IMG/VR virus record: IMGVR_UViG_3300029183_000001
Span: 1,900 to 65,899 of that record
Direction: 5' to 3' (one strand)
DNA: 64,000 nucleotides
DNA from: a virus
Shown here: positions 7,597 to 23,063 of the stretch, piece after piece
Numbering within the stretch: position 1 is the first letter of the stretch
Layout of the letters: the number at the start of each line of letters is the position of its first letter
The notes under the pieces: generated by a model
Told to the model about the DNA's origin: nothing
The model's input: the letters and a program-made list of their open reading frames with translations, nothing else
Database searches by the model: none
Position numbers and translations under genes: made by a program

Positions 7597-8093
7597 TCTT
7601 TATTATGAAACAATCTCAAATTCACTTTAAACCTGATCGCCTTGTCGGTTCCTCCCCTCAACCACGCAGGCGGTATGATCTCGATAAAATCTCCCTTGTG
7701 GTATAACATCATTCCAATCCCTGCACTCGCTATATTCGCCAACTCATGCCTCACTAAATGAACCCCCGCGGGCATCACTATATAAGAATAATCGGCCCAC
7801 CTCTTATGGTCCAACGCCTGATCAAATACTCCTTTGATATCGGTCAACTTCAACTCAAAATTAACAATCTTCCTCTTCGTCATCACCATTACCACATCAC
7901 TCCTCCTCTTTATCTCAGGTATATGATATTCCGTCAGGATCTTCATTGGCCTCACTTCCTCGGTTTCATACTCCTTATGCCGATAATACTTCTGATTCTT
8001 AAGGAACTCAACGAAGAGATCTTGCATCTTCTTCTCCGTTCCTGGGATGTCCCACCCCAAATCATTCAGATAAGGGCTAAACACCGCCATCAC
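7593..8093 (-). CDS. MmcB-like PD-(D/E)XK nuclease-fold protein
   Basis: RRSDVV...FELKL...DQALDHKRWADYSYIVMP. Confidence 0.65.
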   Translation of the reverse strand: MMAVFSPYLNDLGWDIPGTEKKMQDLFVEFLKNQKYYRHKEYETEEVRPMKILTEYHIPEIKRRSDVVMVMTKRKIVNFELKLTDIKGVFDQALDHKRWADYSYIVMPAGVHLVRHELANIASAGIGMMLYHKGDFIEIIPPAWLRGGTDKAIRFKVNLRLFHNKD

Positions 8094-8842
8094 ACTCCTT
8101 TTATCGGCACTTTGATAACTGGATTGATGTCATAAATCTTCTCCTTCTCCTTCGATTTATTTGATGTATCAAACTTGACAATCTTTCCACCCCACTTCTC
8201 TCTCAACATCTCATTATGCAATCTCTCTCTATCAAGATTCCTATATGTCGCACACCCTCCTTCGAGATCCGCTTGGTTACACATGTAATGATACATATTC
8301 AACCTCAGATTCTTCCGGTACTTTCTCAATACCTGGAGAGTCATATCATAATCCTCCTTCAAAAATATCACCTCATCATATCGGCACTCATTATTCCTGT
8401 GAGCCTGGAATGGCCCTCCGATATAGTGCTTTGTCCCAAAAGGTGTATACTCCCTATACGCCCCTTTATCCTTCAAACAATTCAACCCCCAAAACCGGAC
8501 ATCCATATCATCGGCCAAAAGACATCCTTCTTGCATCATGTTATATGCTCCCTGCTCATCCAATATCACATCAACATTCCCATTCCATCTTCCGAAATAA
8601 TCAATGTCATCATCAATTATAATCACCTGGACATCCTCCGGTGCATTGTCCAATATGTAATTTCTCACTCGACAAAGATTCCCTTGCACTGCATCCGGAA
8701 CAACCCAAACCTTGTCATGCACATTCTTATAAGCCTCTCCCTCTGCTTCTCCAACCACATAAGTGACTTGACTCAGATACTTGTGAGACTTACAAAGCTC
8801 GGGCCTCTTATACGATGGGCTATATATGATGAAATCAATCAT
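8090..8842 (-). CDS. GT-A fold glycosyltransferase (TET-associated/GREB1-like DNA glycosyltransferase family)
   Basis: IYSPSYKRP start, IIDDDI (DxD), KEDYDMTLQVL, GGC near C-terminus. Confidence 0.75.
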   Translation of the reverse strand: MIDFIIYSPSYKRPELCKSHKYLSQVTYVVGEAEGEAYKNVHDKVWVVPDAVQGNLCRVRNYILDNAPEDVQVIIIDDDIDYFGRWNGNVDVILDEQGAYNMMQEGCLLADDMDVRFWGLNCLKDKGAYREYTPFGTKHYIGGPFQAHRNNECRYDEVIFLKEDYDMTLQVLRKYRKNLRLNMYHYMCNQADLEGGCATYRNLDRERLHNEMLREKWGGKIVKFDTSNKSKEKEKIYDINPVIKVPIKGV

Positions 8843-12168: not shown

Positions 12169-12939
12169 TCATTTATAAATTCCTAAAATTTCATTTACCT
12201 GATCTCTATTCAATGGGTTTTCAGGGTCCCACTCCCTTATAATTTTATTGGCCTTTTTCAACGCCTCCATCTTCTCATAATCCTTCAAATGCAACTCAGG
12301 GTATTGCTCCCTTAAGCTCATCACATAGTCCTTCTTCCCATACAACGCCTCAACTCCATCTAACATCTTTCCCTGCTCTCCACCTTTGTCTCTATTCGAA
12401 TAAACCGACTGTTTAAAGATGTTCCAACAATTATATCTCAGACTGGGCCACGATCCAATTGAAAACACATGGCCAGAGTCATATTGATTCGTATTCAAAA
12501 ACGGACGAGCAATACAAGTCCTATCAACATCAATCAATTTTATAATCCTATTAATCGATGTCTGTAAAGGATCTGCCGGAGCCCCTTTCTTCCTGGATGC
12601 GAATTTTTTACTCCCCCCTTCACTCAATTCTTCCTCCCACTGGGCCTTCTTCTTCTCCCACGCTTTACGTTGCGCCTTTTTGTCGGCTTCACGCTGCTTC
12701 TTCAATACTTTCTTAGCCGCCTCCTCCATACACTCCAACTTCTCACAGCACTGCTTCAATCCAGTCATGGATCTGACACCATATCTCTGTACGGACATTT
12801 TATACTTCTCATGGCAATAGATGCAACTGTACGTGTTGATCTTGGATGTATCAATTCCGCTCCGGTCCTTTTTCTCCCTGGGAAGCGGCTTCGGATCTCC
12901 AAAGTCAAATTCTTGCATTCCGTTATGCGAGTTCCCCAA
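12169..12939 (-). CDS. ninG: NinG/Rap-like recombination endonuclease
   Basis: YDSGHVFSIGSWPSLRYNCWNIFKQ resembles NinG DAGHYxSxGAxPxLRF; N-terminal Cys cluster and lysine-rich helix. Confidence 0.75.
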   Translation of the reverse strand: MGNSHNGMQEFDFGDPKPLPREKKDRSGIDTSKINTYSCIYCHEKYKMSVQRYGVRSMTGLKQCCEKLECMEEAAKKVLKKQREADKKAQRKAWEKKKAQWEEELSEGGSKKFASRKKGAPADPLQTSINRIIKLIDVDRTCIARPFLNTNQYDSGHVFSIGSWPSLRYNCWNIFKQSVYSNRDKGGEQGKMLDGVEALYGKKDYVMSLREQYPELHLKDYEKMEALKKANKIIREWDPENPLNRDQVNEILGIYK

Positions 12940-13219
12940 CTTCCAAAAATTTTCTCATCTCATCTGCAGTAAATCCAACCCTTACTCCATTGAAATCTTC
13001 TGTGATCAATTTTCTATTCACGCTGAGCGCTTTGATGGCCCCGGTTGTAACAAAACCCAATCCATGAAAGACCTGGCAATCAACTCTAACTCTTCCACCC
13101 TTTGGACTCTCAACAATATAATCACTCCCATCAACTGTGACGTGGCACACCCCTTCCTTTTGCTTCATCCTCTCTCTCTTATAATCGGGGTATCTCCTTC
13201 TCATTTCGTAAACATGCAC
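12923..13219 (-). CDS. hypothetical protein
   Basis: 98-aa ORF (start may be internal). Confidence 0.6.
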   Translation of the reverse strand: MHVYEMRRRYPDYKRERMKQKEGVCHVTVDGSDYIVESPKGGRVRVDCQVFHGLGFVTTGAIKALSVNRKLITEDFNGVRVGFTADEMRKFLEVGELA

Positions 13220-14043
13220 TCAATACACAAAACTGCATCCTCCTCTTCCTGTACTTCACTCAATGGGATCTTCTTCTCACACCTCGCACATCTGACGATC
13301 TTCTGCCCCTTTAACTTCATATTCAATTCATCCCTCAAAGTTGGCTCACCTTTCTCTCTTCTCTGATATTCTGGATCAGCTGGAGGGACTTTGATTCCGA
13401 ATAACAAATTGGCTTCCCTGATCACTCGATCAATGAAATTCTTTGCCTCCTTCCAATTCGCTTTAGCCAAACTTGGCTTCCCTGGAATCTCCCTCAACGT
13501 CTTGATCACTCCGATCACTTGACTTGGTTCCAACAACTCTCCCTCCCCAATCATCATATCCAACTCCCCTGTAAATGGGGCTTTCCAAACCATATCACTT
13601 TCATGGTTCTTCCTGAATACGACAATGGGGTCATCCTTCTCGACAAACCCTCCATCATGAACTGTCTTGACCACCAAAAGATCAGTGAACTTAGGCCCAA
13701 CCACATTCTCAATCTTCATCGCTTTCCAGGGATCACCATTCTTCAAATGCTTCTCCTTCAAATACTCCTCAACTAACTTCTCATCAACCTCATTGTCAAT
13801 CTGCAGATTCTCCGTCCCTGACTGAATCAATCCGAACATATACCAGGGAAGGACAACCCCATAAAAATATCCTAATTGTCCCGTGGACTTCGGAGCAATG
13901 TAAGGCTCACATGAAAACCGGACTTTTTGGCCTTTGAACTCTTCGGCCATCTTTCCAATCCATGATTCATTTGGATTCTCCTTCCAATTCCCATGTTCAC
14001 TCACCTCAGTGACAAAGGATTTCTTCTTTTTTAAACTGCCCAT
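13201..14043 (-). CDS. NinB-like protein with inserted lipoyl/biotinyl-like domain and C-terminal TraR/DksA-type C4 zinc finger
   Basis: KSTGQLGYFYGVVL and FIDRVIREANLLFGIKVPP (NinB-like); VEKDDPIVVF...KAPFTGEL...GEGELLEPSQVIGVI; CARCEKKIP...AVLCIEC. Confidence 0.65.
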   Translation of the reverse strand: MGSLKKKKSFVTEVSEHGNWKENPNESWIGKMAEEFKGQKVRFSCEPYIAPKSTGQLGYFYGVVLPWYMFGLIQSGTENLQIDNEVDEKLVEEYLKEKHLKNGDPWKAMKIENVVGPKFTDLLVVKTVHDGGFVEKDDPIVVFRKNHESDMVWKAPFTGELDMMIGEGELLEPSQVIGVIKTLREIPGKPSLAKANWKEAKNFIDRVIREANLLFGIKVPPADPEYQRREKGEPTLRDELNMKLKGQKIVRCARCEKKIPLSEVQEEEDAVLCIECMFTK

Positions 14044-14303
14044 TGTCCAAGCGATTTCTCCATTAATTGTCTGGCAACTTCATATCCTCCTTCACATCTA
14101 CCAATAGCCCTAAATAGAGCACTATCCTTCCCCTCAATTAAAGTTCTGTAATCTCCATCAACCCAAAATCCAATTTTATAATTCCAATCTTTCCCATCAA
14201 GGTTTAGGCTCAACATAAAATACCCATGTGTGCACAAATACACATCTCCTTCTTGAAAAGATTTCCAATGATAATTTGGCCTGCTAAATTCTGCCCGATT
14301 CAT
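14031..14303 (-). CDS. hypothetical protein
   Basis: 90-aa ORF. Confidence 0.65.
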   Translation of the reverse strand: MNRAEFSRPNYHWKSFQEGDVYLCTHGYFMLSLNLDGKDWNYKIGFWVDGDYRTLIEGKDSALFRAIGRCEGGYEVARQLMEKSLGQWAV

Positions 14304-14306
14304 CCC

Positions 14307-14624
14307 TTAATCGTTGATCAACTGCAACCCCTGCTCGATAGCATACAACTTCTCATAATTCACTGAGTACTCTGGATTATCTCCCGACTCATCACAATTA
14401 ATCAATTTGGCATTTGTCCCAATCTGCAGAACTCGAATCACATCAGTCATTGGCATACCAAGCTCAACAATCACATCATTCATTAATGCAACCTTTCTAT
14501 CTCCAAGATAGACCAATACTTTCCTGACTTCCTTGTCATTATATGCATTGATTATCATTTGAGCAGTCCTCAGCATGTCATTACAAAATATCTCCACTGG
14601 TGGAGTCTTAAACAATGTTACCAT
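14307..14624 (-). CDS. hypothetical protein, possible winged HTH
   Basis: 105-aa ORF directly after operator-promoter at 14642. Confidence 0.7.
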   Translation of the reverse strand: MVTLFKTPPVEIFCNDMLRTAQMIINAYNDKEVRKVLVYLGDRKVALMNDVIVELGMPMTDVIRVLQIGTNAKLINCDESGDNPEYSVNYEKLYAIEQGLQLIND

Positions 14625-14641: not shown

Positions 14642-14661
14642 CAAATATATAAATTATATAT
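14642..14661 (-). promoter_or_regulatory. TATATTTG promoter with perfect palindrome at 14645-14661
   Basis: + strand caaatatataaattatatat. Confidence 0.8.
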
Positions 14662-16310
14662 CAATTGAGGGAATCAATACACCTCTGCCCGATCCACTCA
14701 GGCACTTGTGGTGTGACGGCATTCCCCAACTGTTTGGTCTGATCCCTTTGATTTCCAAGCACTTCATATTCATCCGGGAATCCCATAGCCCTCTGTATCT
14801 CATCCGGTTTCAACATCCGGTAAAAGCAATCCATCGGATCGATTCCATGGGTCTTTACCAGTGACGCTCTTTGTACTCCCGTCATAGTCCGGACTGGATC
14901 AGCCATACTTGACGTGCCATGACCTTTTGAATTGTAATAACTCAAAAAATGATCAAAGCTCTCAGGGCTCAATATACCATGACTCACTTTTGATGTGACT
15001 GTTCTCATCGGTTCTGCAGAACTTGATGCAGTACTCCTCCCCTTGTTGTTGACCATTATTGGCAACCTCAATAATCCATGGTGATCAGTCGCTGTGACTG
15101 TCCCGGCCTCTCTTCCCAAATCTCGAACCCAACCAGGAGAATAATTCCCAACCAACATATGGTGATTCCCCCCTGCCAGGATTGTACTGATATACTCTCC
15201 TATTGATCTTCCTTTACCCGTCCTGTTCATTTCAACAATGAAAGGTAATATCATTCCCGCGCTCTGAGATGTCGTCTGTGTCATTATCTCCCTGGACGTG
15301 GGCCGGACAACTGCAGAATCATTCGCTCCTGCATAAGCCACATTGATCAAGAACGGACTTAACAGGCCATGATCCAATTGAGTTGTGGCCGTTCCCATTG
15401 GGTCGAGTGCCGTCTTTACCCTGCTATTGATTCTCCCCTTATGCCGGACATTCAAAATCAAATGTTCATTACCATACTTCTCCAACCCATATACAATCCT
15501 TCTCATCGTCTTTTCACTCAACGGCCTCTTTCTGTCTCCTATCCTTTTGATCTTGTGATTCCAATTGATCACATTGAATGCTGCATAATAGTATGGCTCA
15601 ACCACTTGATAACATTCCAAGCATCGATATAAATATTGCTGTTTATACTTCCCCCAATTCCTTCCTTTCTTCCATGCTTGATATGATCCAACCTCCTTCT
15701 CGCAATTCATACAATATGCCTTTGGTTCATATTCGAGATCCGGCGCCTTGTTTCCCTTCTTCCAAAACACCACATAAAGCCGGTCACGAGATTGTGGGCA
15801 TGGAAGAAAGTGCATTGAATTGAAATAACAAGTCTTATGCTCATATCCCAATGAATGCATTGCCATCAACCAAGCATCCCACAACGCCCACCTCTTCGCA
15901 TCAACCACATTCTCAACAACAATGATCTCATAATTATGATACTCCGCAAACCTGGGAACATCCCACATCGTGGCTCTGGATCTTTCATGATCTGGATTAA
16001 ACTGGATCTCTCCAAATAATTCCATCTGCCTCTGATGCTTTCTCTTCATCCCCTGGGCGAGACTATGGTTGGTGCATTCAGGAGACGTGACCAATATATC
16101 AGTACTTGGATATCTTCTCGGATCACATGCCTGCACATCTGTACAATCATGATCAACTTCTGGATGATTCGTATTATGAGTATCGATGGCCAACTTCCAA
16201 TGATTCAAAGCCATCTTAACCTCAACCCCGGCCTTTTTAATCCCGGTAGTCGTTCCCCCTGCTCCACAAAATTGATCCGTGGCAGTCAGATAAGATTTTT
16301 TCCTTCCCAT
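14661..16310 (-). CDS. DNA cytosine-5 methyltransferase
   Basis: Motif I DQFCGAGG, catalytic TSPECTNHS, motif VI VENV, motif VIII QSRDRLY, C-terminal KQLGNAVTP. Confidence 0.93.
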   Translation of the reverse strand: MGRKKSYLTATDQFCGAGGTTTGIKKAGVEVKMALNHWKLAIDTHNTNHPEVDHDCTDVQACDPRRYPSTDILVTSPECTNHSLAQGMKRKHQRQMELFGEIQFNPDHERSRATMWDVPRFAEYHNYEIIVVENVVDAKRWALWDAWLMAMHSLGYEHKTCYFNSMHFLPCPQSRDRLYVVFWKKGNKAPDLEYEPKAYCMNCEKEVGSYQAWKKGRNWGKYKQQYLYRCLECYQVVEPYYYAAFNVINWNHKIKRIGDRKRPLSEKTMRRIVYGLEKYGNEHLILNVRHKGRINSRVKTALDPMGTATTQLDHGLLSPFLINVAYAGANDSAVVRPTSREIMTQTTSQSAGMILPFIVEMNRTGKGRSIGEYISTILAGGNHHMLVGNYSPGWVRDLGREAGTVTATDHHGLLRLPIMVNNKGRSTASSSAEPMRTVTSKVSHGILSPESFDHFLSYYNSKGHGTSSMADPVRTMTGVQRASLVKTHGIDPMDCFYRMLKPDEIQRAMGFPDEYEVLGNQRDQTKQLGNAVTPQVPEWIGQRCIDSLN

Positions 16311-17240: not shown

Positions 17241-18113
17241 TTAAAACTTTTCTTCCTGTCCAATCTCCTTAACCACACTTCCCGGACGGAGAATGTTTGC
17301 CTTTCCTCTCCACACGATCCACTCACATAAATCAGCCATCCTTCCTAATATAGCGTCACCATATATCTTTTGAAAATCTTCCTTTGAATGATTCGTAATG
17401 TAGATCTTCAACGGCTTTCTCTTATTCGTGTAATGATTCCTCACTATCCTTTCAACCAATCCAGTCTTCCCCCTGAATGCAACATGAGCATCCAACCCCG
17501 CATGCGCGAAGTCATCATAAATAGTGTCATACCTATAATGCATCGTTGGTATACTGGTGTCCTTCTTCTCTTCGATCATCTCAACTAACTTCGTATAATC
17601 GATGAAATAGAAACTTTTCAAATTCTTGTATTCATTCTGCAGATCCCGGCAAATTGAGTTGATCACCCGGACAAACGTTGTCTTCCCTGTTCCAACATTA
17701 CCCTCAATCACAATACTCTTCCTCACATTGATCAACTTATCCCCCTCATGATAACCGGGAATCCATTCCCCATCTGGATTCCTCCATCCCTGGAGATTCA
17801 AAAAATATTTGATCAACCTTCTGCACGTCTCTTTATTCCTGTCATCAACCCAAATCTTCCTATCCCCTGGGATCTCCTTTTTCAATCGACTGACGACAAG
17901 ATTAAACATTTGATCATATCCCATGACTGGCATCTCTGCATAGTTCCGGTTTTGGATCCGCTGTAAATATGCTTGATGCTCTTCCGGTGACATCGAGATA
18001 TCATTTTGTCCTGTCCTCCTCTTCTTCTTATCCTCAAACTCAGCCCACCTATCGCTGAGCATTGTTTCCGGGTACTTCTCATTTAAAATGTCTTCATTAC
18101 TAACTTTGGCCAT
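17241..18113 (-). CDS. DnaC/IstB-like P-loop ATPase (helicase loader)
   Basis: Walker A GNVGTGKT, IYDDF, IYITN...IYGDAILGRM; follows initiator. Confidence 0.8.
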   Translation of the reverse strand: MAKVSNEDILNEKYPETMLSDRWAEFEDKKKRRTGQNDISMSPEEHQAYLQRIQNRNYAEMPVMGYDQMFNLVVSRLKKEIPGDRKIWVDDRNKETCRRLIKYFLNLQGWRNPDGEWIPGYHEGDKLINVRKSIVIEGNVGTGKTTFVRVINSICRDLQNEYKNLKSFYFIDYTKLVEMIEEKKDTSIPTMHYRYDTIYDDFAHAGLDAHVAFRGKTGLVERIVRNHYTNKRKPLKIYITNHSKEDFQKIYGDAILGRMADLCEWIVWRGKANILRPGSVVKEIGQEEKF

Positions 18114-18114
18114 A

Positions 18115-18981
18115 TCAATCTCTTTCTGAGTGATTTAATCGATCCTTAAAATTAGCCTTCTTATTCTTTGGGAAAAACCCTTTGTACCTCGCTTTGATCG
18201 CCACATCAATCGCCTCTCCTGCAGACTCAACACCATACTCAACAATATCATTCCAACAACCTTTAATCCCCTTCGTCGATTTATACTGCTCTCCTCTCTC
18301 CACCTTCTTATAATTCAACCACTTCATCAATAGATCCATCTTGGCTTTCGTTCTTCGATCATCTCCCTGGATGACAGGCTCCACATACTGGATCTGATTT
18401 CCATGCTCCTCAATGAATTTTTTTAGATCCCAACTTTCCCCCTGACTCAATTTCAGATAAACACTAATCGAAGGAAACAACTGTTGAAAATCGGCCGGCG
18501 TCATCTTCTTCATTTCATTGGCCGTATACTTCACTTTCTTTTTAAACGGGAGTGTACCATTGGTACCTCCTTCTTCTAAGTTCTTTTTACTATTTACTTC
18601 TTCGGGTAAAGTTACTTGACCATTTCCGGGTAAACCTACTTGACCACCCCGGTCAAGTGACTTGACCCCGGGTAAAGCACCATCGATGTACACTTGTTGC
18701 CATTTCGGTGTCGTCCTCAAATGCTTCGTGATCTCATGCTTCTCAACCAATCCCTTCTTAATCATCCTCTCAACCATATCAATAGCCGCCTGCTTACTGA
18801 TTCCAACCTCCGCTCCTAAATTCACCCTCGACATATAGCACCAACCGGGAACTTTGCTCTCTCTGGATCCGCACATCAAATTGATAATGTCACACATCCC
18901 ATATTCTGGCCAACTCAATCCAAACTCCCTCCTCCAGGGATGGATAATTGTGGTAAATCTGATCTTGATAACTCCTCCCAT
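18115..18981 (-). CDS. phage replication initiator (N-terminal winged HTH)
   Basis: CYMSRVNLGAEVGISKQAAIDMVERMIKKGLV; internal iteron array. Confidence 0.75.
   Translation of the reverse strand: MGGVIKIRFTTIIHPWRREFGLSWPEYGMCDIINLMCGSRESKVPGWCYMSRVNLGAEVGISKQAAIDMVERMIKKGLVEKHEITKHLRTTPKWQQVYIDGALPGVKSLDRGGQVGLPGNGQVTLPEEVNSKKNLEEGGTNGTLPFKKKVKYTANEMKKMTPADFQQLFPSISVYLKLSQGESWDLKKFIEEHGNQIQYVEPVIQGDDRRTKAKMDLLMKWLNYKKVERGEQYKSTKGIKGCWNDIVEYGVESAGEAIDVAIKARYKGFFPKNKKANFKDRLNHSERD
18603..18677. repeat. iteron-like repeats, putative replication origin
   Basis: cgggtaaagttacttgacca (18603), cgggtaaacctacttgacca (18627), ccggtcaagtgacttgaccc (18649), cgggtaaag (18669), next to an AT-rich stretch. 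Confidence 0.7.
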
Positions 18982-19512: not shown

Positions 19513-20886
19513 CTATTTGATTAATCCTCTCCTTCTTAGTTCGACAAATACAAAATGATCACAATTCGGAAGCCCTGAAATGTGTTTCAAATAACTGTCA
19601 GGGACTTGATGCACTGGCTCCCCATAATGCTGACCAAAAGGCATATGTGTAACCTCTCTCCCATTATTCCTCCACCTGGGATTCTTAATGATCTTCCCAT
19701 CGAAGTACAACTTGCTACCAATATCCTCCGCATTGATCCCGGTCAATAATACATTTCCTCGGAAAAGCTCCCATTTCGTCCCTTTCCTTCGATCATAAGC
19801 CACTTCCTTAAAATCGATCTCTTCAATCTCCCCAAACCTTTGAACATTCCCACAATAATCTGCAATAACCTTAGTCTTCATCGATTCCGTGATCCTTACA
19901 ACCCTTCCACATGCCTGGAGATATTCCCCCAAACTCCCATATGGCCTCCCCAACATTATTCCATCCAAACCAGGGAAATCCAAACCCTCCTTAAAAACTC
20001 CAAAATTGAACATCCTTTTAATCTTCCCATTCAACCACGCATCCAATAGATCCTCCCTTTTATTCTTCTCGGTTTTCGATCCTATAAATGCAGAGCTCCT
20101 CACCTTCTCGCTCATCTCCTCCGCGATCTTGGCGCTCGCCCCATAAATCAATATACTCTTATCTGGATCCGCTTTCCTTAAATGATGCAGAATCAAATCA
20201 TTCGTGTTATTGATATTGATCGCCAACGCCACACTCTGAGGAGTAAAATCTCTTCCCGTTGAGTTCCGTCTTAGCTTCGATGCATCGAACTCATATTGCA
20301 TATACTTCAATGGGCTCCACCACTCATTCTCAACCAAGTGTTGAACCGGGACACAAAACCGGATCTTCTTAAAGAACTTTTCTTTGGTATTCGTGATCAC
20401 TCGATATGATACACCATTCATGTTCCGGTAATTCCTAATCGGAGCAGCCGACAATCCAAACACCTTCTCTGCCCCTACTCCCGTCAGAAACTTTTGATAC
20501 ATCGTCTGATCATCTGGACTCACTCCATGACACTCATCAATGACCACATTTTTGATTCCCTTGAATAATGGGATAGCATTCACCATGCTTTGAACAGTCC
20601 CAAACGTAACCATTCCTTTTTTCTTCCTCCCCAATCCTGCACAGAATACATCTGCATTCCTGAATCCATACTTGAAATACTTGTGGAAATTCTGCCTCAC
20701 AAGCTCCTTCTTTGGAGCCATCACAATCATCTCTTCCTGAAGTCTCTTCGCGGTTTCTGAGATCAATATGGATTTCCCGCTTCCCGTTGGTGATATCCCA
20801 ACCTCATTCTGAGGCTTTGGATCTTTGAAGAAATCGCACATACTGTTGACCGAATTCTCCTGGTAACCTCTTAAGACGAACCCCAT
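19513..20886 (-). CDS. superfamily 2 (DExH) helicase
   Basis: SPTGSGKS, IDECH, GLSAAP, motif V EGLDFP, motif VI QACGRVVR; C-terminal PFGQHYG. Confidence 0.93.
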   Translation of the reverse strand: MGFVLRGYQENSVNSMCDFFKDPKPQNEVGISPTGSGKSILISETAKRLQEEMIVMAPKKELVRQNFHKYFKYGFRNADVFCAGLGRKKKGMVTFGTVQSMVNAIPLFKGIKNVVIDECHGVSPDDQTMYQKFLTGVGAEKVFGLSAAPIRNYRNMNGVSYRVITNTKEKFFKKIRFCVPVQHLVENEWWSPLKYMQYEFDASKLRRNSTGRDFTPQSVALAININNTNDLILHHLRKADPDKSILIYGASAKIAEEMSEKVRSSAFIGSKTEKNKREDLLDAWLNGKIKRMFNFGVFKEGLDFPGLDGIMLGRPYGSLGEYLQACGRVVRITESMKTKVIADYCGNVQRFGEIEEIDFKEVAYDRRKGTKWELFRGNVLLTGINAEDIGSKLYFDGKIIKNPRWRNNGREVTHMPFGQHYGEPVHQVPDSYLKHISGLPNCDHFVFVELRRRGLIK

Positions 20887-21708: not shown

Positions 21709-22335
21709 TCATAATAGGGTAGAACAATAGATTTTGTACCCCGAATCCGATGGATTCACCTTCTCCTCATAACATTCGGACAAATACCCAATTCTTCTCT
21801 CATGTTCCTCCACATCGAATTCTCCAATGTCAAGATCAAATGTAAACACCCTTCCCTTCGCCTCTACTCCAAAAGGATTATCATACTCCTCATCATCCAA
21901 TCCCAACACATGGATCTTCCCCTTGTTGGCCCGACAAACCCACATGGCATGATACACCTGTCTTCGGTAACCAATTGGGATCGCATACCCAATCAACCAA
22001 GTCCACGCCTTCTTCCTCTTCGCGGTCTTCGCCTCATGTACAGTCAACACCCCATCATCCTCATCTTCCAATGCATCAGTATTGACCCCTGCAATCGTTC
22101 CTTTCTTCTCTTTCTTTATCCCCCAACATATCTCAGGCACCCCCGCCTCTCTTAATATGTCCTCCTCCAAAAGATTCCCCGCAATGGTATAATCATTTCG
22201 GATGTTGTAAATCTTAAGCCCTGTGACTTTCTGTTTCCACCAACTTTGGAAGGTAGGTACATCGAAAGACCCATAAATAAAACTCATGTCACTTCCTCCG
22301 ATGTACGCAACCCTGGACTCCTTATCTCTAACCAT
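21709..22335 (-). CDS. YqaJ/lambda-exonuclease-like recombination nuclease
   Basis: IGGSD, GNLLEEDIL, NTDAL...HEAKT, YRRQVYHAMWV. Confidence 0.8.
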   Translation of the reverse strand: MVRDKESRVAYIGGSDMSFIYGSFDVPTFQSWWKQKVTGLKIYNIRNDYTIAGNLLEEDILREAGVPEICWGIKKEKKGTIAGVNTDALEDEDDGVLTVHEAKTAKRKKAWTWLIGYAIPIGYRRQVYHAMWVCRANKGKIHVLGLDDEEYDNPFGVEAKGRVFTFDLDIGEFDVEEHERRIGYLSECYEEKVNPSDSGYKIYCSTLL

Positions 22336-22340
22336 GCTCC

Positions 22341-23063
22341 TTACTTTTTCCTCTTATTGATCTCAGCCTCCAATGTGTTGGCATCCAGCGAAGCCCACTG
22401 CTCCAATAACTGGATCAACTCATTCTTATCCTTATCACTTTCCGAATCCATCACTTTCTTCAACTCTCTTTTTGAGGACTGAATCAATGAATAAAACATA
22501 GCAGTATTCCCACACTTCTTCACCAACTTCTCCGTCAACTCAATGATCTGTTTATTCTTCGCGGTAATCTGCTCGCTTTTTGATTGATCCTCTTCTGGAT
22601 CATCGACCTGGGCTTGTTCATCCTTCATCCATAACGACAATCCCAATCCTGTGTTAATCGCGACACATTTGGCAAATCCCCTTTGATGCGCGATATGCAC
22701 AACTAAGCTCGAAACCTGCCCCCCTGTACTTGAAGCCTTCCCCATAACCGGGAAATCCAATTCAAATTTATCATCATCAATATCAACCCAAACAACCACA
22801 AACGGGGCAATCCCTTGATTAAAAAATGCAGGGTATCCATCTTCATTTCTTTTTACCCCATATCGAACCTTCTTCGCACCATGCTCATACAACAACTCAA
22901 TAATCTTCGCCCACTCACAATAATCCAACCACTGATCCTCCGGTGCTTTTACATACTTGGTTTCTCTCCCTTCTCTTTTCTTGATAAATGTGGGCTTTTT
23001 GAATGTGTGCCCCTCTTTCACAAGGTCAATCTTGACCAACTCATTAAATGGCTTTAATGGCAT
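22341..23063 (-). CDS. single-strand annealing protein (Sak/Rad52-like, DUF1071 type)
   Basis: LDYCEWA...DFPVM...QRGFAKCVAINTGLGLSLW; adjacent to exonuclease. Confidence 0.75.
   Translation of the reverse strand: MPLKPFNELVKIDLVKEGHTFKKPTFIKKREGRETKYVKAPEDQWLDYCEWAKIIELLYEHGAKKVRYGVKRNEDGYPAFFNQGIAPFVVVWVDIDDDKFELDFPVMGKASSTGGQVSSLVVHIAHQRGFAKCVAINTGLGLSLWMKDEQAQVDDPEEDQSKSEQITAKNKQIIELTEKLVKKCGNTAMFYSLIQSSKRELKKVMDSESDKDKNELIQLLEQWASLDANTLEAEINKRKK

What the first reader, a model, noticed from the sequence alone, without database searches (positions are those of the whole stretch)
13201..14043. NinB-like protein with an inserted lipoyl/biotinyl-like domain and a TraR/DksA-type zinc finger
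Seen: NinB-like halves (QLGYFYGVVL ... FIDRVIREANLLFGIKVPP) flank about 66 aa (approx. 13498-13696) that align by eye to lipoyl domains (VEKDDPIVVF..., KAPFTGEL...GEGELLEPSQVIGVI). The acceptor motif (ETDKA) is replaced by RKNHES. The C-terminus has CARC-x17-CIEC. Established: NinB/Orf is a recombination mediator, TraR/DksA fingers modulate RNA polymerase, and lipoyl domains belong to 2-oxoacid dehydrogenases. Inference: an unusual three-part fusion, possibly linking recombination to transcription or using a host-captured domain as a decoy.
Basis: partly seen in the sequence, partly recalled or inferred. Interest (0 to 1): 0.6.

Follow-up and report, generated by a model that had tools for sequence, protein, structure and literature searches.

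The report
NinB recombination protein with lipoyl-fold insert
An uncultured marine phage encodes a divergent NinB/Orf recombination helper that carries a lipoyl/biotinyl-fold domain, lacking the cofactor-accepting lysine, spliced into a hairpin, plus a small C-terminal zinc ribbon; the domain combination is rare and I found no description of it, but its role is not established.

Summary
ORF 13201-14043 (minus strand, 280 aa) is real. Its two flanks belong to a divergent NinB/Orf family. 29 of 40 family members hit PHROG 72 (NinB/Orf, best E 4e-22). An insert-less relative's model has lambda NinB (1pc6) as rank 1 of 48,161 chains (Z 9.1). The top BFVD hit of the P0001 model is a phage NinB.

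Residues ~106-187 form a discrete insert that short family members lack. The insert folds confidently (pLDDT 92-97) as a barrel-sandwich hybrid, matching BCCP 2d5d (Z 10.6, rmsd 1.5 A) and lipoyl domain 1iyv (Z 10.2).

The cofactor lysine position holds E, G, N, D, S or E in the six insert-bearing proteins, so the insert is not a cofactor carrier. On a core-only tree they form one clade (97/95), which points to a single acquisition.

The "TraR/DksA" label is not supported. The Pfam score is 13.1 bits against a cut-off of 24.9, and Cys-pair spacing varies from 13 to 17 among relatives. It is better called a generic C4 zinc ribbon.

The gene sits in a lambda-Red-like module: Sak annealing protein, RecE-like exonuclease, O-like initiator, DnaC-like loader, NinG/Rap.

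Best reading: an Orf-type recombination mediator with two accessory modules. It is a new variant of a known kind. The role of the insert is inferred only.

The parts
13201..14043 (-). Whole ORF, 280 aa plus stop (P0001): NinB/Orf-like protein with an inserted barrel-sandwich hybrid domain and a C-terminal zinc ribbon
   Evidence: The start is supported by relatives that align from residues 1-5. It overlaps the upstream ORF by 13 nt and the downstream ORF by 19 nt, which suggests translational coupling.
13729..14043 (-). N-terminal half of the Orf/NinB core (residues 1-105): N-terminal strands plus helices 54-74 and 85-99. It contains K52-S53-x-x-Q56, which aligns with lambda Orf R41-S42-x-x-Q45.
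   Evidence: Q56 is nearly invariant in the 40-sequence family. Residue roles in lambda Orf are from PMC4118853.
13483..13728 (-). Inserted barrel-sandwich hybrid (lipoyl/biotinyl-fold) domain, residues ~106-187, contiguous and all-beta. The canonical acceptor-lysine position is E148. It contains an APFTGEL motif.
   Evidence: Model pLDDT 92-97. VIA: 2d5d_A Z 10.6, rmsd 1.5 A, 67 aa; 1iyv_A Z 10.2. Foldseek: 5gua TM 0.84 on target length. Atlas ESMFold TM 0.80-0.85 to Biotin_lipoyl clusters. Absent from short relatives. Lysine register.
13306..13482 (-). C-terminal half of the Orf/NinB core (residues 188-246): the PSLAKA segment, helix 197-215 (third helix of the bundle), the conserved IPxPD motif, and helix 236-245
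   Evidence: The 1pc6_B alignment spans model residues 52-222, across the insert.
13204..13305 (-). C-terminal C4 zinc ribbon (residues 247-280; C252-x2-C255-x17-C273-x2-C276, window ~13216-13290)
   Evidence: Pfam zf-dskA_traR is sub-threshold. The finger is present in 5 of 6 insert-bearing relatives and in insert-less P0013, with spacing 13-17. Model pLDDT is 62-83 here.
12169..12939 (-). NinG/Rap junction-specific endonuclease, two genes downstream (context)
   Evidence: Pfam NinG E 4.8e-16; phrog_171 E 9e-14. A full-length homologue lies directly after the NinB-like gene in L003.
21709..23063 (-). Sak-like single-strand annealing protein (22341-23063) and RecE-like exonuclease (21709-22335): the likely recombinase partners (context)
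   Evidence: Pfam SSAP_Sak E 4e-07, 30.1 bits against a 22.3 cut-off. phrog_434 RecE-like exonuclease E 3.9e-12.

Best explanation
The gene encodes a divergent member of the phage Orf/NinB family of recombination mediators. It sits in a lambda-Red-like module of an uncultured Bacteroidota phage: RecE-like exonuclease, Sak-type annealing protein, Orf-like protein, and NinG/Rap resolvase.

Inferred by analogy with lambda Orf: it dimerises through its helical core, binds ssDNA and the SSB tail, and helps load the phage annealing protein (and/or host RecA) onto SSB-coated ssDNA.

Shown here: a contiguous ~80-residue barrel-sandwich hybrid domain of the lipoyl/biotinyl-carrier type was inserted once, in the ancestor of a small clade, at the tip of the hairpin between the second and third core helices. 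This corresponds to lambda Orf residues 90/91. The domain lacks the modifiable lysine, so it is not a cofactor-carrying swinging arm.

Inferred, and the weakest step: the insert serves as a rigid protein-protein docking or oligomerisation module next to the dimer interface and channel entrance.

The C-terminal C4 zinc ribbon is a generic small zinc ribbon. It extends the C-terminal region, which in lambda Orf contributes to DNA binding, so it is most likely an extra DNA or partner contact. It is not a TraR/DksA RNA-polymerase effector.
For: Core = NinB/Orf:
- The exhaustive phmmer search links P0001 to insert-less relatives, e.g. P0015 at E 2e-4 in 1.84 billion proteins.
- P0015 hits phrog_72 NinB/Orf at E 4.1e-22 and P0014 at 1.5e-8. 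29 of 40 family members hit phrog_72, and 5 hit Pfam NinB.
- VIA-align places 1pc6_B at Z 7.6 across P0001 residues 52-222.
- For the insert-less P0008 model, 1pc6_B is rank 1 at Z 9.1 with 94 aa aligned, the only Z >= 8. The next hits are the Sak SSAP and the Redbeta C-terminal domain, Orf's known structural relatives (PMC6393309). Foldseek's top two PDB hits are 1pc6_B and 1pc6_A.
- The BFVD top hit of the P0001 model is NinB of Tenacibaculum phage Gundel_1, E 1.1e-4.
- The hhalign register against lambda NinB aligns K52/S53/Q56/Y61 with lambda R41/S42/Q45/W50.

Insert = barrel-sandwich hybrid.

No acceptor lysine.

Single origin: the insert-bearing proteins form one clade with 97/95 support.

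Context:
- Window module.
- NinG adjacency is conserved in L003.
- The gene lies downstream of an O-like initiator in L004-L006, as ninB does in lambda.
Against: - P0001 itself has no direct significant hit to Pfam NinB or phrog_72; the link is transitive.
- hhalign against the single lambda sequence is weak (E 0.003-0.008, probability 5-9%).
- The Foldseek E-value for 1pc6 is only 0.09.
- Lambda N46 is L57 in P0001, and R103 is not conserved in the wider family, so the DNA-channel chemistry may differ.
- The insert's net charge is inconsistent across relatives (pI 5.0-9.6), and no partner has been identified.
- No SSB gene was recognised in the window.
- Dimerisation, DNA binding and SSB binding are all untested.
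Confidence: 0.8

Rival explanations
1. The insert is a functional or mimicking lipoyl/biotinyl carrier domain. Either it is modified on a nearby lysine (K145 in P0001), or it acts as a decoy that binds host enzymes recognising such domains (lipoate or biotin ligases, E1/E3 components). Either way it would couple phage recombination to host metabolism.
For: The fold is closest to genuine carrier domains: BCCP Z 10.6 and lipoyl Z 10.2. It shares the APF-x-GE[LV] motif with carrier domains. It is contiguous, as carrier domains are, whereas the efflux-adaptor matches span chain ranges far longer than the ~70 residues aligned. Atlas feature neighbours are lipoyl/biotinyl clusters at 0.79-0.80, which is only a lead.
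Against: The acceptor position, 11 residues before the PxxG glycine (validated on all three AceF lipoyl domains), holds E, G, N, D, S or E in the six proteins. P0001 and P0002 have no lysine within one residue of it. No hairpin lysine is invariant. There is no significant sequence similarity to any carrier domain (E 0.7 at best; Pfam Biotin_lipoyl E 0.26 in one member). VIA Z-scores for the adaptor and other non-carrier barrel-sandwich domains (about 8-9.5) lie close behind the carrier domains.
Confidence: 0.05
2. The C-terminal finger is a genuine TraR/DksA-type zinc finger that binds the RNA-polymerase secondary channel, which would link recombination to transcription.
For: P0001 has CxxC-x17-CxxC, the DksA/TraR spacing, and a weak Pfam zf-dskA_traR hit at E 0.1.
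Against: The score of 13.1 bits is well below the 24.9 cut-off, and a ubiquitin-binding zinc finger model scores better. None of the other 39 family members hits this model. Related fingers have spacings of 13, 13, 13, 14 and 16. Only one short helix (236-245) precedes the finger in the model; a DksA-type coiled coil with an acidic tip would be expected (from my knowledge of that family). pLDDT is 62-83 in this region.
Confidence: 0.05
3. The protein is not a mediator of the Orf type. It merely shares the three-helix bundle found in the Redbeta and Sak C-terminal domains, and has a different function, for example an exonuclease- or SSB-binding adaptor only.
For: Structural hits to the Sak SSAP (Z 5.7-5.9) and the Redbeta C-terminal domain (Z 5.0) are present. 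Direct NinB sequence hits for P0001 are lacking.
Against: 1pc6 scores more than 3 Z units above those hits and aligns 94 residues, including the hairpin region. Family members hit the NinB/Orf profile over nearly its full length (31-154 of 161). The phage already has a separate Sak protein.
Confidence: 0.08

Closest known systems
Phage lambda Orf (NinB), PDB 1PC6; Pfam PF05772; PHROG 72
   Same: Same family by transitive profile homology and by fold. Same genomic niche: after the replication genes and near NinG/Rap, in a phage with an exonuclease plus annealing-protein pair. The K/R-S-x-x-Q motif of the channel-lining helix is conserved.
   Different: Very divergent: there is no direct Pfam or PHROG hit for P0001. 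It carries an ~80-aa barrel-sandwich hybrid domain inserted at the position of lambda residues 90/91, and a C-terminal zinc ribbon. Lambda N46 is replaced by Leu.
DUF968 Orf-like proteins (Orf domain fused to a C-terminal zinc-finger HNH nuclease; Curtis et al. 2014, PMC4118853)
   Same: An Orf core with a cysteine-containing C-terminal extension, a precedent for accessory C-terminal modules in this family. P0003 and P0004 show weak similarity to an HNH PHROG (E 0.017-0.057).
   Different: The tail here is only ~34 aa. P0001 has no histidine in its last 60 residues, so an HNH motif is impossible. DUF968 proteins have no internal domain insertion.
Lipoyl and biotinyl carrier domains (Pfam PF00364), e.g. 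E. coli AceF lipoyl domains and P. horikoshii BCCP 2d5d
   Same: The same contiguous flattened beta-barrel (barrel-sandwich hybrid) fold at rmsd 1.5-2.4 A over 67-76 residues, and a shared (A/S)P-x-x-G-x-(L/I/V) motif.
   Different: There is no lysine at the modification position, no significant sequence similarity, and the domain is embedded in a DNA-recombination protein rather than a metabolic enzyme.
Non-carrier barrel-sandwich hybrid domains (efflux-pump adaptors HlyD, EmrA, AcrA, BesA; CphZ; RNAP beta-flap)
   Same: The same fold used as a structural or interaction module with no cofactor. VIA Z is 8-9.5 for the adaptors and CphZ and 5.4-6.0 for the RNAP beta-flap entries.
   Different: In the adaptor matches the aligned ~70 residues are spread over chain ranges of 130-270 residues, so the two halves lie far apart in sequence; from my knowledge of those proteins an alpha-hairpin separates them. 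Here the domain is contiguous.

Membership tests
Orf/NinB recombination mediator family (PF05772 / phrog_72) | Significant match of the protein itself to the family profile | tested here: not met
   P0001 has no hit to Pfam NinB at E <= 10, nor to phrog_72 at E <= 1.
Orf/NinB recombination mediator family (PF05772 / phrog_72) | Transitive homology: significant relatives of the protein match the family profile | tested here: met
   P0001 to P0015 is E 2e-4 against 1.84 billion proteins. P0015 to phrog_72 is E 4.1e-22 over profile positions 31-154 of 161. 29 of 40 members hit phrog_72 and 5 of 40 hit Pfam NinB.
Orf/NinB recombination mediator family (PF05772 / phrog_72) | The Orf fold as in PDB 1PC6 | tested here: met
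   P0001 model: 1pc6_B Z 7.6, 75 aa, spanning residues 52-222. Insert-less P0008 model: 1pc6_B rank 1 of 48,161 at Z 9.1 with 94 aa, next hit Z 5.9. Foldseek ranks 1-2 are 1pc6_B and 1pc6_A, E 0.09. BFVD top hit is a phage NinB, E 1.1e-4.
Orf/NinB recombination mediator family (PF05772 / phrog_72) | Conserved channel residues (lambda R41, Q45, N46, K48, W50; PMC4118853) | tested here: inconclusive
   In the hhalign register, K52 = R41, Q56 = Q45 (nearly invariant in the family) and Y61 = W50, but L57 = N46 and Y59 = K48. The alignment is of low confidence.
Orf/NinB recombination mediator family (PF05772 / phrog_72) | Dimeric toroid; ssDNA and SSB binding; mediator activity | not testable with these tools
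   Needs biochemistry or a multimer model. Only monomer prediction was available.
Lipoyl/biotinyl carrier domain (PF00364) | Barrel-sandwich hybrid fold | tested here: met
   2d5d_A Z 10.6, rmsd 1.5 A, 67 of 70 aa; 1iyv_A Z 10.2. 5gua TM 0.84 on target length. Atlas ESMFold TM 0.80-0.85.
Lipoyl/biotinyl carrier domain (PF00364) | Modifiable lysine at the hairpin tip (11 residues before the PxxG glycine) | tested here: not met
   The control is met in all three AceF domains. P0001 has E148 at this position, and the relatives have G, N, D, S and E. In the HMMER alignment the biotinyl-lysine of pyruvate carboxylase aligns with E148.
Lipoyl/biotinyl carrier domain (PF00364) | Significant match to the Pfam profile | tested here: not met
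   No hit for P0001 at E <= 10. One family member hits at E 0.26.
TraR/DksA C4 zinc finger (PF01258) | Match above Pfam's gathering score | tested here: not met
   13.1 bits against a 24.9 cut-off, E 0.1. No other family member hits the model.
TraR/DksA C4 zinc finger (PF01258) | Conserved CxxC-x17-CxxC spacing | tested here: inconclusive
   P0001 has x17, but homologous fingers in relatives have x13, x13, x13, x14 and x16.
TraR/DksA C4 zinc finger (PF01258) | Binding to the RNA polymerase secondary channel | not testable with these tools
   Needs a binding assay.

The most novel reading that the evidence does not exclude
The lysine-less carrier-type domain is a molecular mimic that docks onto host proteins which recognise lipoyl or biotinyl domains (ligases, E1/E3 components, or a defence system that monitors them). 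This would tether or sequester them at recombination intermediates, a direct physical link between phage recombination and host central metabolism or defence.
Probability: 0.05. Interest if true: 0.75.

Novelty: new variant of a known kind. Interest (0 to 1): 0.42.

Why it matters
Orf/NinB is the phage counterpart of RecFOR, and how it contacts its partners is still poorly understood. A natural variant with a rigid, well-folded extra domain spliced into the hairpin beside the dimer interface, plus a zinc ribbon at the DNA-contacting C-terminus, marks surfaces that tolerate and presumably use added interaction modules. It offers matched natural pairs (with and without the insert, with and without the finger) for dissecting mediator function.

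It also adds a DNA-recombination context to the known uses of the barrel-sandwich hybrid fold without a cofactor. The form is rare: six full-length proteins among about 15 billion. Its practical importance is therefore limited unless a specific partner is found.

Tried and rejected
- **Direct profile hits for P0001.** Pfam, PHROGs, and PF05772 against the whole viral record gave nothing significant. phmmer against PDB sequences gave nothing.
- **Close relatives.** The word-indexed protein search found only the protein itself. tblastn against 50,697 phage records found nothing.
- **P0016.** This 926-aa protein matched the insert region five times, but it is an FG-GAP/NHL repeat protein. I treat the hit as a repeat-boosted chance match to TGE[LV]D/N[MV]W and set it aside.
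- **Genomic context of the insert-bearing relatives.** Two metagenome scans and one genome scan found no locus, and one call failed for lack of conserved columns. The viral scan returned only insert-less relatives.
- **Origin of the insert.** Using the insert alone against PDB sequences, the best hit was a pyruvate carboxylase biotinyl domain at E 0.71, which is not significant. I therefore cannot name a donor or separate a lipoyl from a biotinyl origin. VIA Z-scores for carrier and several non-carrier domains are within about 1 unit.
- **hhalign of the family profile against lambda NinB.** The register is sensible, but the probability is only 5-9%.
- **HNH reading of the C-terminus.** Rejected, because P0001 has no histidine in its last 60 residues.
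- **Net charge of the insert as a clue to DNA binding.** Inconsistent (pI 5.0-9.6).
- **Literature.** No paper in the library combines NinB with lipoyl, biotinyl or barrel-sandwich terms.
- **Earlier findings of this scan.** No look-alike by sequence or by words.

Full report
**Observation.** The window is part of a 69.8-kb IMG/VR viral contig with all genes on the minus strand. The finding's coordinates hold a 280-aa ORF on the minus strand, 13201-14043 (protein P0001). The ORF overlaps its neighbours by 13 and 19 nt, which is typical of a translationally coupled phage operon.

**Relatives and the insert.** P0001 has no significant hit in Pfam or PHROGs, no close relative in the word-indexed search of 5.8 billion proteins, and none in phage GenBank records.

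An exhaustive phmmer search of 1.84 billion representatives found 15 relatives. A profile search extended the family to 40 sequences. Four architectures occur:

| Architecture | Members | Length |
|---|---|---|
| Insert + zinc finger | P0001, P0002, P0003, P0004, P0017 | 262-280 aa |
| Insert only | P0007 | 239 aa |
| Zinc finger only | P0013 | 202 aa |
| Neither | the remaining 33 | 131-177 aa |

The alignment shows a clean insert of about 75-80 residues in P0001 (about 106/113-187) relative to the short forms. A 926-aa FG-GAP repeat protein that matched the insert five times is a chance, repeat-boosted hit.

**The flanks are NinB/Orf.**
- 29 of the 40 family members individually hit phrog_72, "NinB/Orf homologous recombination mediator". 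Five hit Pfam NinB.
- P0015, a direct phmmer hit of P0001, matches phrog_72 at E 4.1e-22 over almost the whole profile. P0014 matches at 1.5e-8.
- A confident AF2 model of P0001 (mean pLDDT 89.8) aligns with lambda NinB (1pc6_B) at Z 7.6 across residues 52-222, that is, across the insert.
- To remove the insert's influence I modelled the insert-less relative P0008 (pLDDT 89.4). Foldseek's top two of 350,542 PDB chains are 1pc6_B and 1pc6_A (E 0.09).
- In the Foldseek-independent VIA-align search, 1pc6_B is rank 1 of 48,161 chains. Its Z of 9.1 (94 residues aligned) is the only Z >= 8. The Sak annealing protein (5.9) and the Redbeta C-terminal domain (5.0) follow. These are the proteins reported to share Orf's three-helix core (PMC6393309).
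- In BFVD the best hit of the P0001 model is NinB of Tenacibaculum phage Gundel_1 (E 1.1e-4), with two more annotated NinB proteins in the list.
- hhalign of the family profile against the single lambda NinB sequence is weak (E 0.003-0.008). Its register is coherent over 100-125 columns. It aligns K52-S53-x-x-Q56 with lambda R41-S42-x-x-Q45, and Y61 with W50. Curtis et al. identify these residues as conserved and channel-lining (PMC4118853).
- Q56 is nearly invariant across the 40 sequences. Lambda N46 is Leu in P0001.

**The insert is a barrel-sandwich hybrid domain without the acceptor lysine.** Residues 106-186 are all-beta with pLDDT 92-97.

| Search | Best matches |
|---|---|
| Foldseek, PDB | Biotinyl and lipoyl domains: 5gua TM 0.84 on target length, rmsd 1.8 A; also 1qjo, 1ghj, 3crk_C |
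| VIA-align wide | BCCP 2d5d_A Z 10.6 (rmsd 1.5 A, 67 of 70 residues); lipoyl 1iyv_A Z 10.2; non-carrier domains of efflux adaptors and CphZ at Z 8-9.5 |
| Atlas ESMFold model | Biotin_lipoyl clusters at TM 0.80-0.85 |
| BFVD | Giant-virus lipoyl-domain proteins at ranks 2 and 5 |

The domain is contiguous, like carrier domains. In the efflux-adaptor matches the aligned residues are spread over much longer chain ranges.

By sequence, the only hint is a non-significant hit (E 0.71) to the biotinyl domain of pyruvate carboxylase, anchored on APF-x-GE[LV]. In that alignment the biotinyl-lysine pairs with E148. As a control, all three lipoyl-lysines of E. coli AceF lie exactly 11 residues before the PxxG glycine. 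At that position the six insert-bearing proteins have E, G, N, D, S and E, and P0001 and P0002 have no lysine within one residue. No hairpin lysine is invariant. The domain is therefore not a conserved cofactor carrier.

**Evolution.** On a maximum-likelihood tree built from core columns only, the six insert-bearing proteins form one clade (UFboot/SH-aLRT 97/95). This clade is nested in a group (94/97) with insert-less forms. A single insertion event is the simplest account. The insert is less conserved (20-30% identity to P0001) than the core halves (29-45%), and its net charge varies (pI 5.0-9.6).

**The zinc finger.** P0001 has CxxC-x17-CxxC. The Pfam zf-dskA_traR match is far below threshold (13.1 against 24.9 bits, E 0.1), and a ubiquitin-binding zinc finger model scores better. 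No other family member hits that model. The homologous fingers have spacings of 13, 13, 13, 14 and 16. P0001 has no histidine in its last 60 residues, which excludes an HNH motif of the DUF968 type. I read it as a generic C4 zinc ribbon.

Curtis et al. report that Orf's flexible C-terminal helix contributes to DNA binding, and that DUF968 Orf-like proteins carry C-terminal zinc-finger HNH extensions. C-terminal accessory modules therefore have precedent in this family.

**Context.** In transcription order the module contains:
- Sak-type annealing protein, 22341-23063 (Pfam SSAP_Sak, 30.1 bits against a 22.3 cut-off)
- RecE-like exonuclease, 21709-22335
- SF2 helicase, 19513-20886
- O-like initiator, 18115-18981
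- DnaC-like loader, 17241-18113
- C5 DNA methyltransferase, 14661-16310
- two small ORFs
- P0001
- a 98-aa ORF
- NinG/Rap, 12169-12939
- a matrixin-like peptidase
- an amidase endolysin

The layout mirrors lambda's exo/bet plus O-P-ren-ninB...ninG.

In related viral contigs, the insert-less homologue is followed directly by a full-length NinG homologue in L003 (E 2e-21). In L004-L006 it lies about 1 kb downstream of an O-like initiator.

The window's NinG is closest to those of Cellulophaga and Flavobacterium phages, and the best structural NinB match is from a Tenacibaculum phage.

**Mechanism.**
- Shown: family, fold, insert position, absence of the acceptor lysine, single origin, and genomic context.
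- Inferred from lambda Orf: a dimeric mediator that binds ssDNA and the SSB tail and helps the phage Sak protein and/or RecA onto SSB-coated ssDNA.
- Inferred, and the weakest step: the insert emerges from the hairpin between core helices 2 and 3. This is the alpha3-beta3-beta4 region that contributes to the Orf dimer interface and varies among Orf homologues. It probably acts as a protein-docking or oligomerisation module. The zinc ribbon probably adds a DNA or partner contact.

**Limits.**
- The contigs of the insert-bearing relatives could not be recovered.
- Model coordinates are not exposed, so I could not measure the geometry of the insert relative to the channel or model the dimer.
- No paper in the library links NinB with lipoyl, biotinyl or barrel-sandwich domains. 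That shows only that I found no description of the combination.

**Verdict.** This is a new architectural variant of a known family, rare, and of moderate interest.

Noticed in passing
window 21709-23063 (minus strand): Sak-type single-strand annealing protein (Pfam SSAP_Sak, E 4e-07) followed by a RecE-like exonuclease (phrog_434, E 3.9e-12). Together with the Orf-like protein and NinG/Rap, they give this Bacteroidota phage a complete lambda-Red-like recombination set.
   Followed up: partly
window 14661-16310 (minus strand): A 549-aa C5 cytosine DNA methyltransferase (Pfam DNA_methylase E 2.7e-29; phrog_116 E 1.8e-66), unusually long. The PHROG match spans residues 4-548, so there is a large middle region between the N- and C-terminal catalytic parts.
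   Followed up: no
window 12923-13219 and 14031-14624 (minus strand): Three small ORFs (98, 90 and 105 aa) flank the Orf-like gene and have no Pfam or PHROG family. The 98-aa ORF and the 90-aa ORF overlap the Orf-like gene by 19 and 13 nt, so they are probably co-translated with it and could be partners.
   Followed up: no
window 12169-12939 (minus strand): The NinG/Rap homologue is long (256 aa). It has an N-terminal Cys-rich segment and a lysine/glutamate-rich linker absent from the 214-aa homologue in L003.
   Followed up: no
P0016 (not in the window): A 926-aa NHL/FG-GAP repeat protein reached E 7.5e-4 against P0001, through five repeats resembling TGELDMW. This shows how repeats can lift a chance match over the threshold.
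   Followed up: yes
window 8090-8842 (minus strand): A glucosyltransferase-like protein (phrog_842, beta-glucosyl-HMC-alpha-glucosyltransferase, E 1.7e-15) lies next to a ParB/methyltransferase-like ORF. This suggests DNA hypermodification, and an earlier first-reader note of this scan (e1-5350663) already covers it.
   Followed up: no
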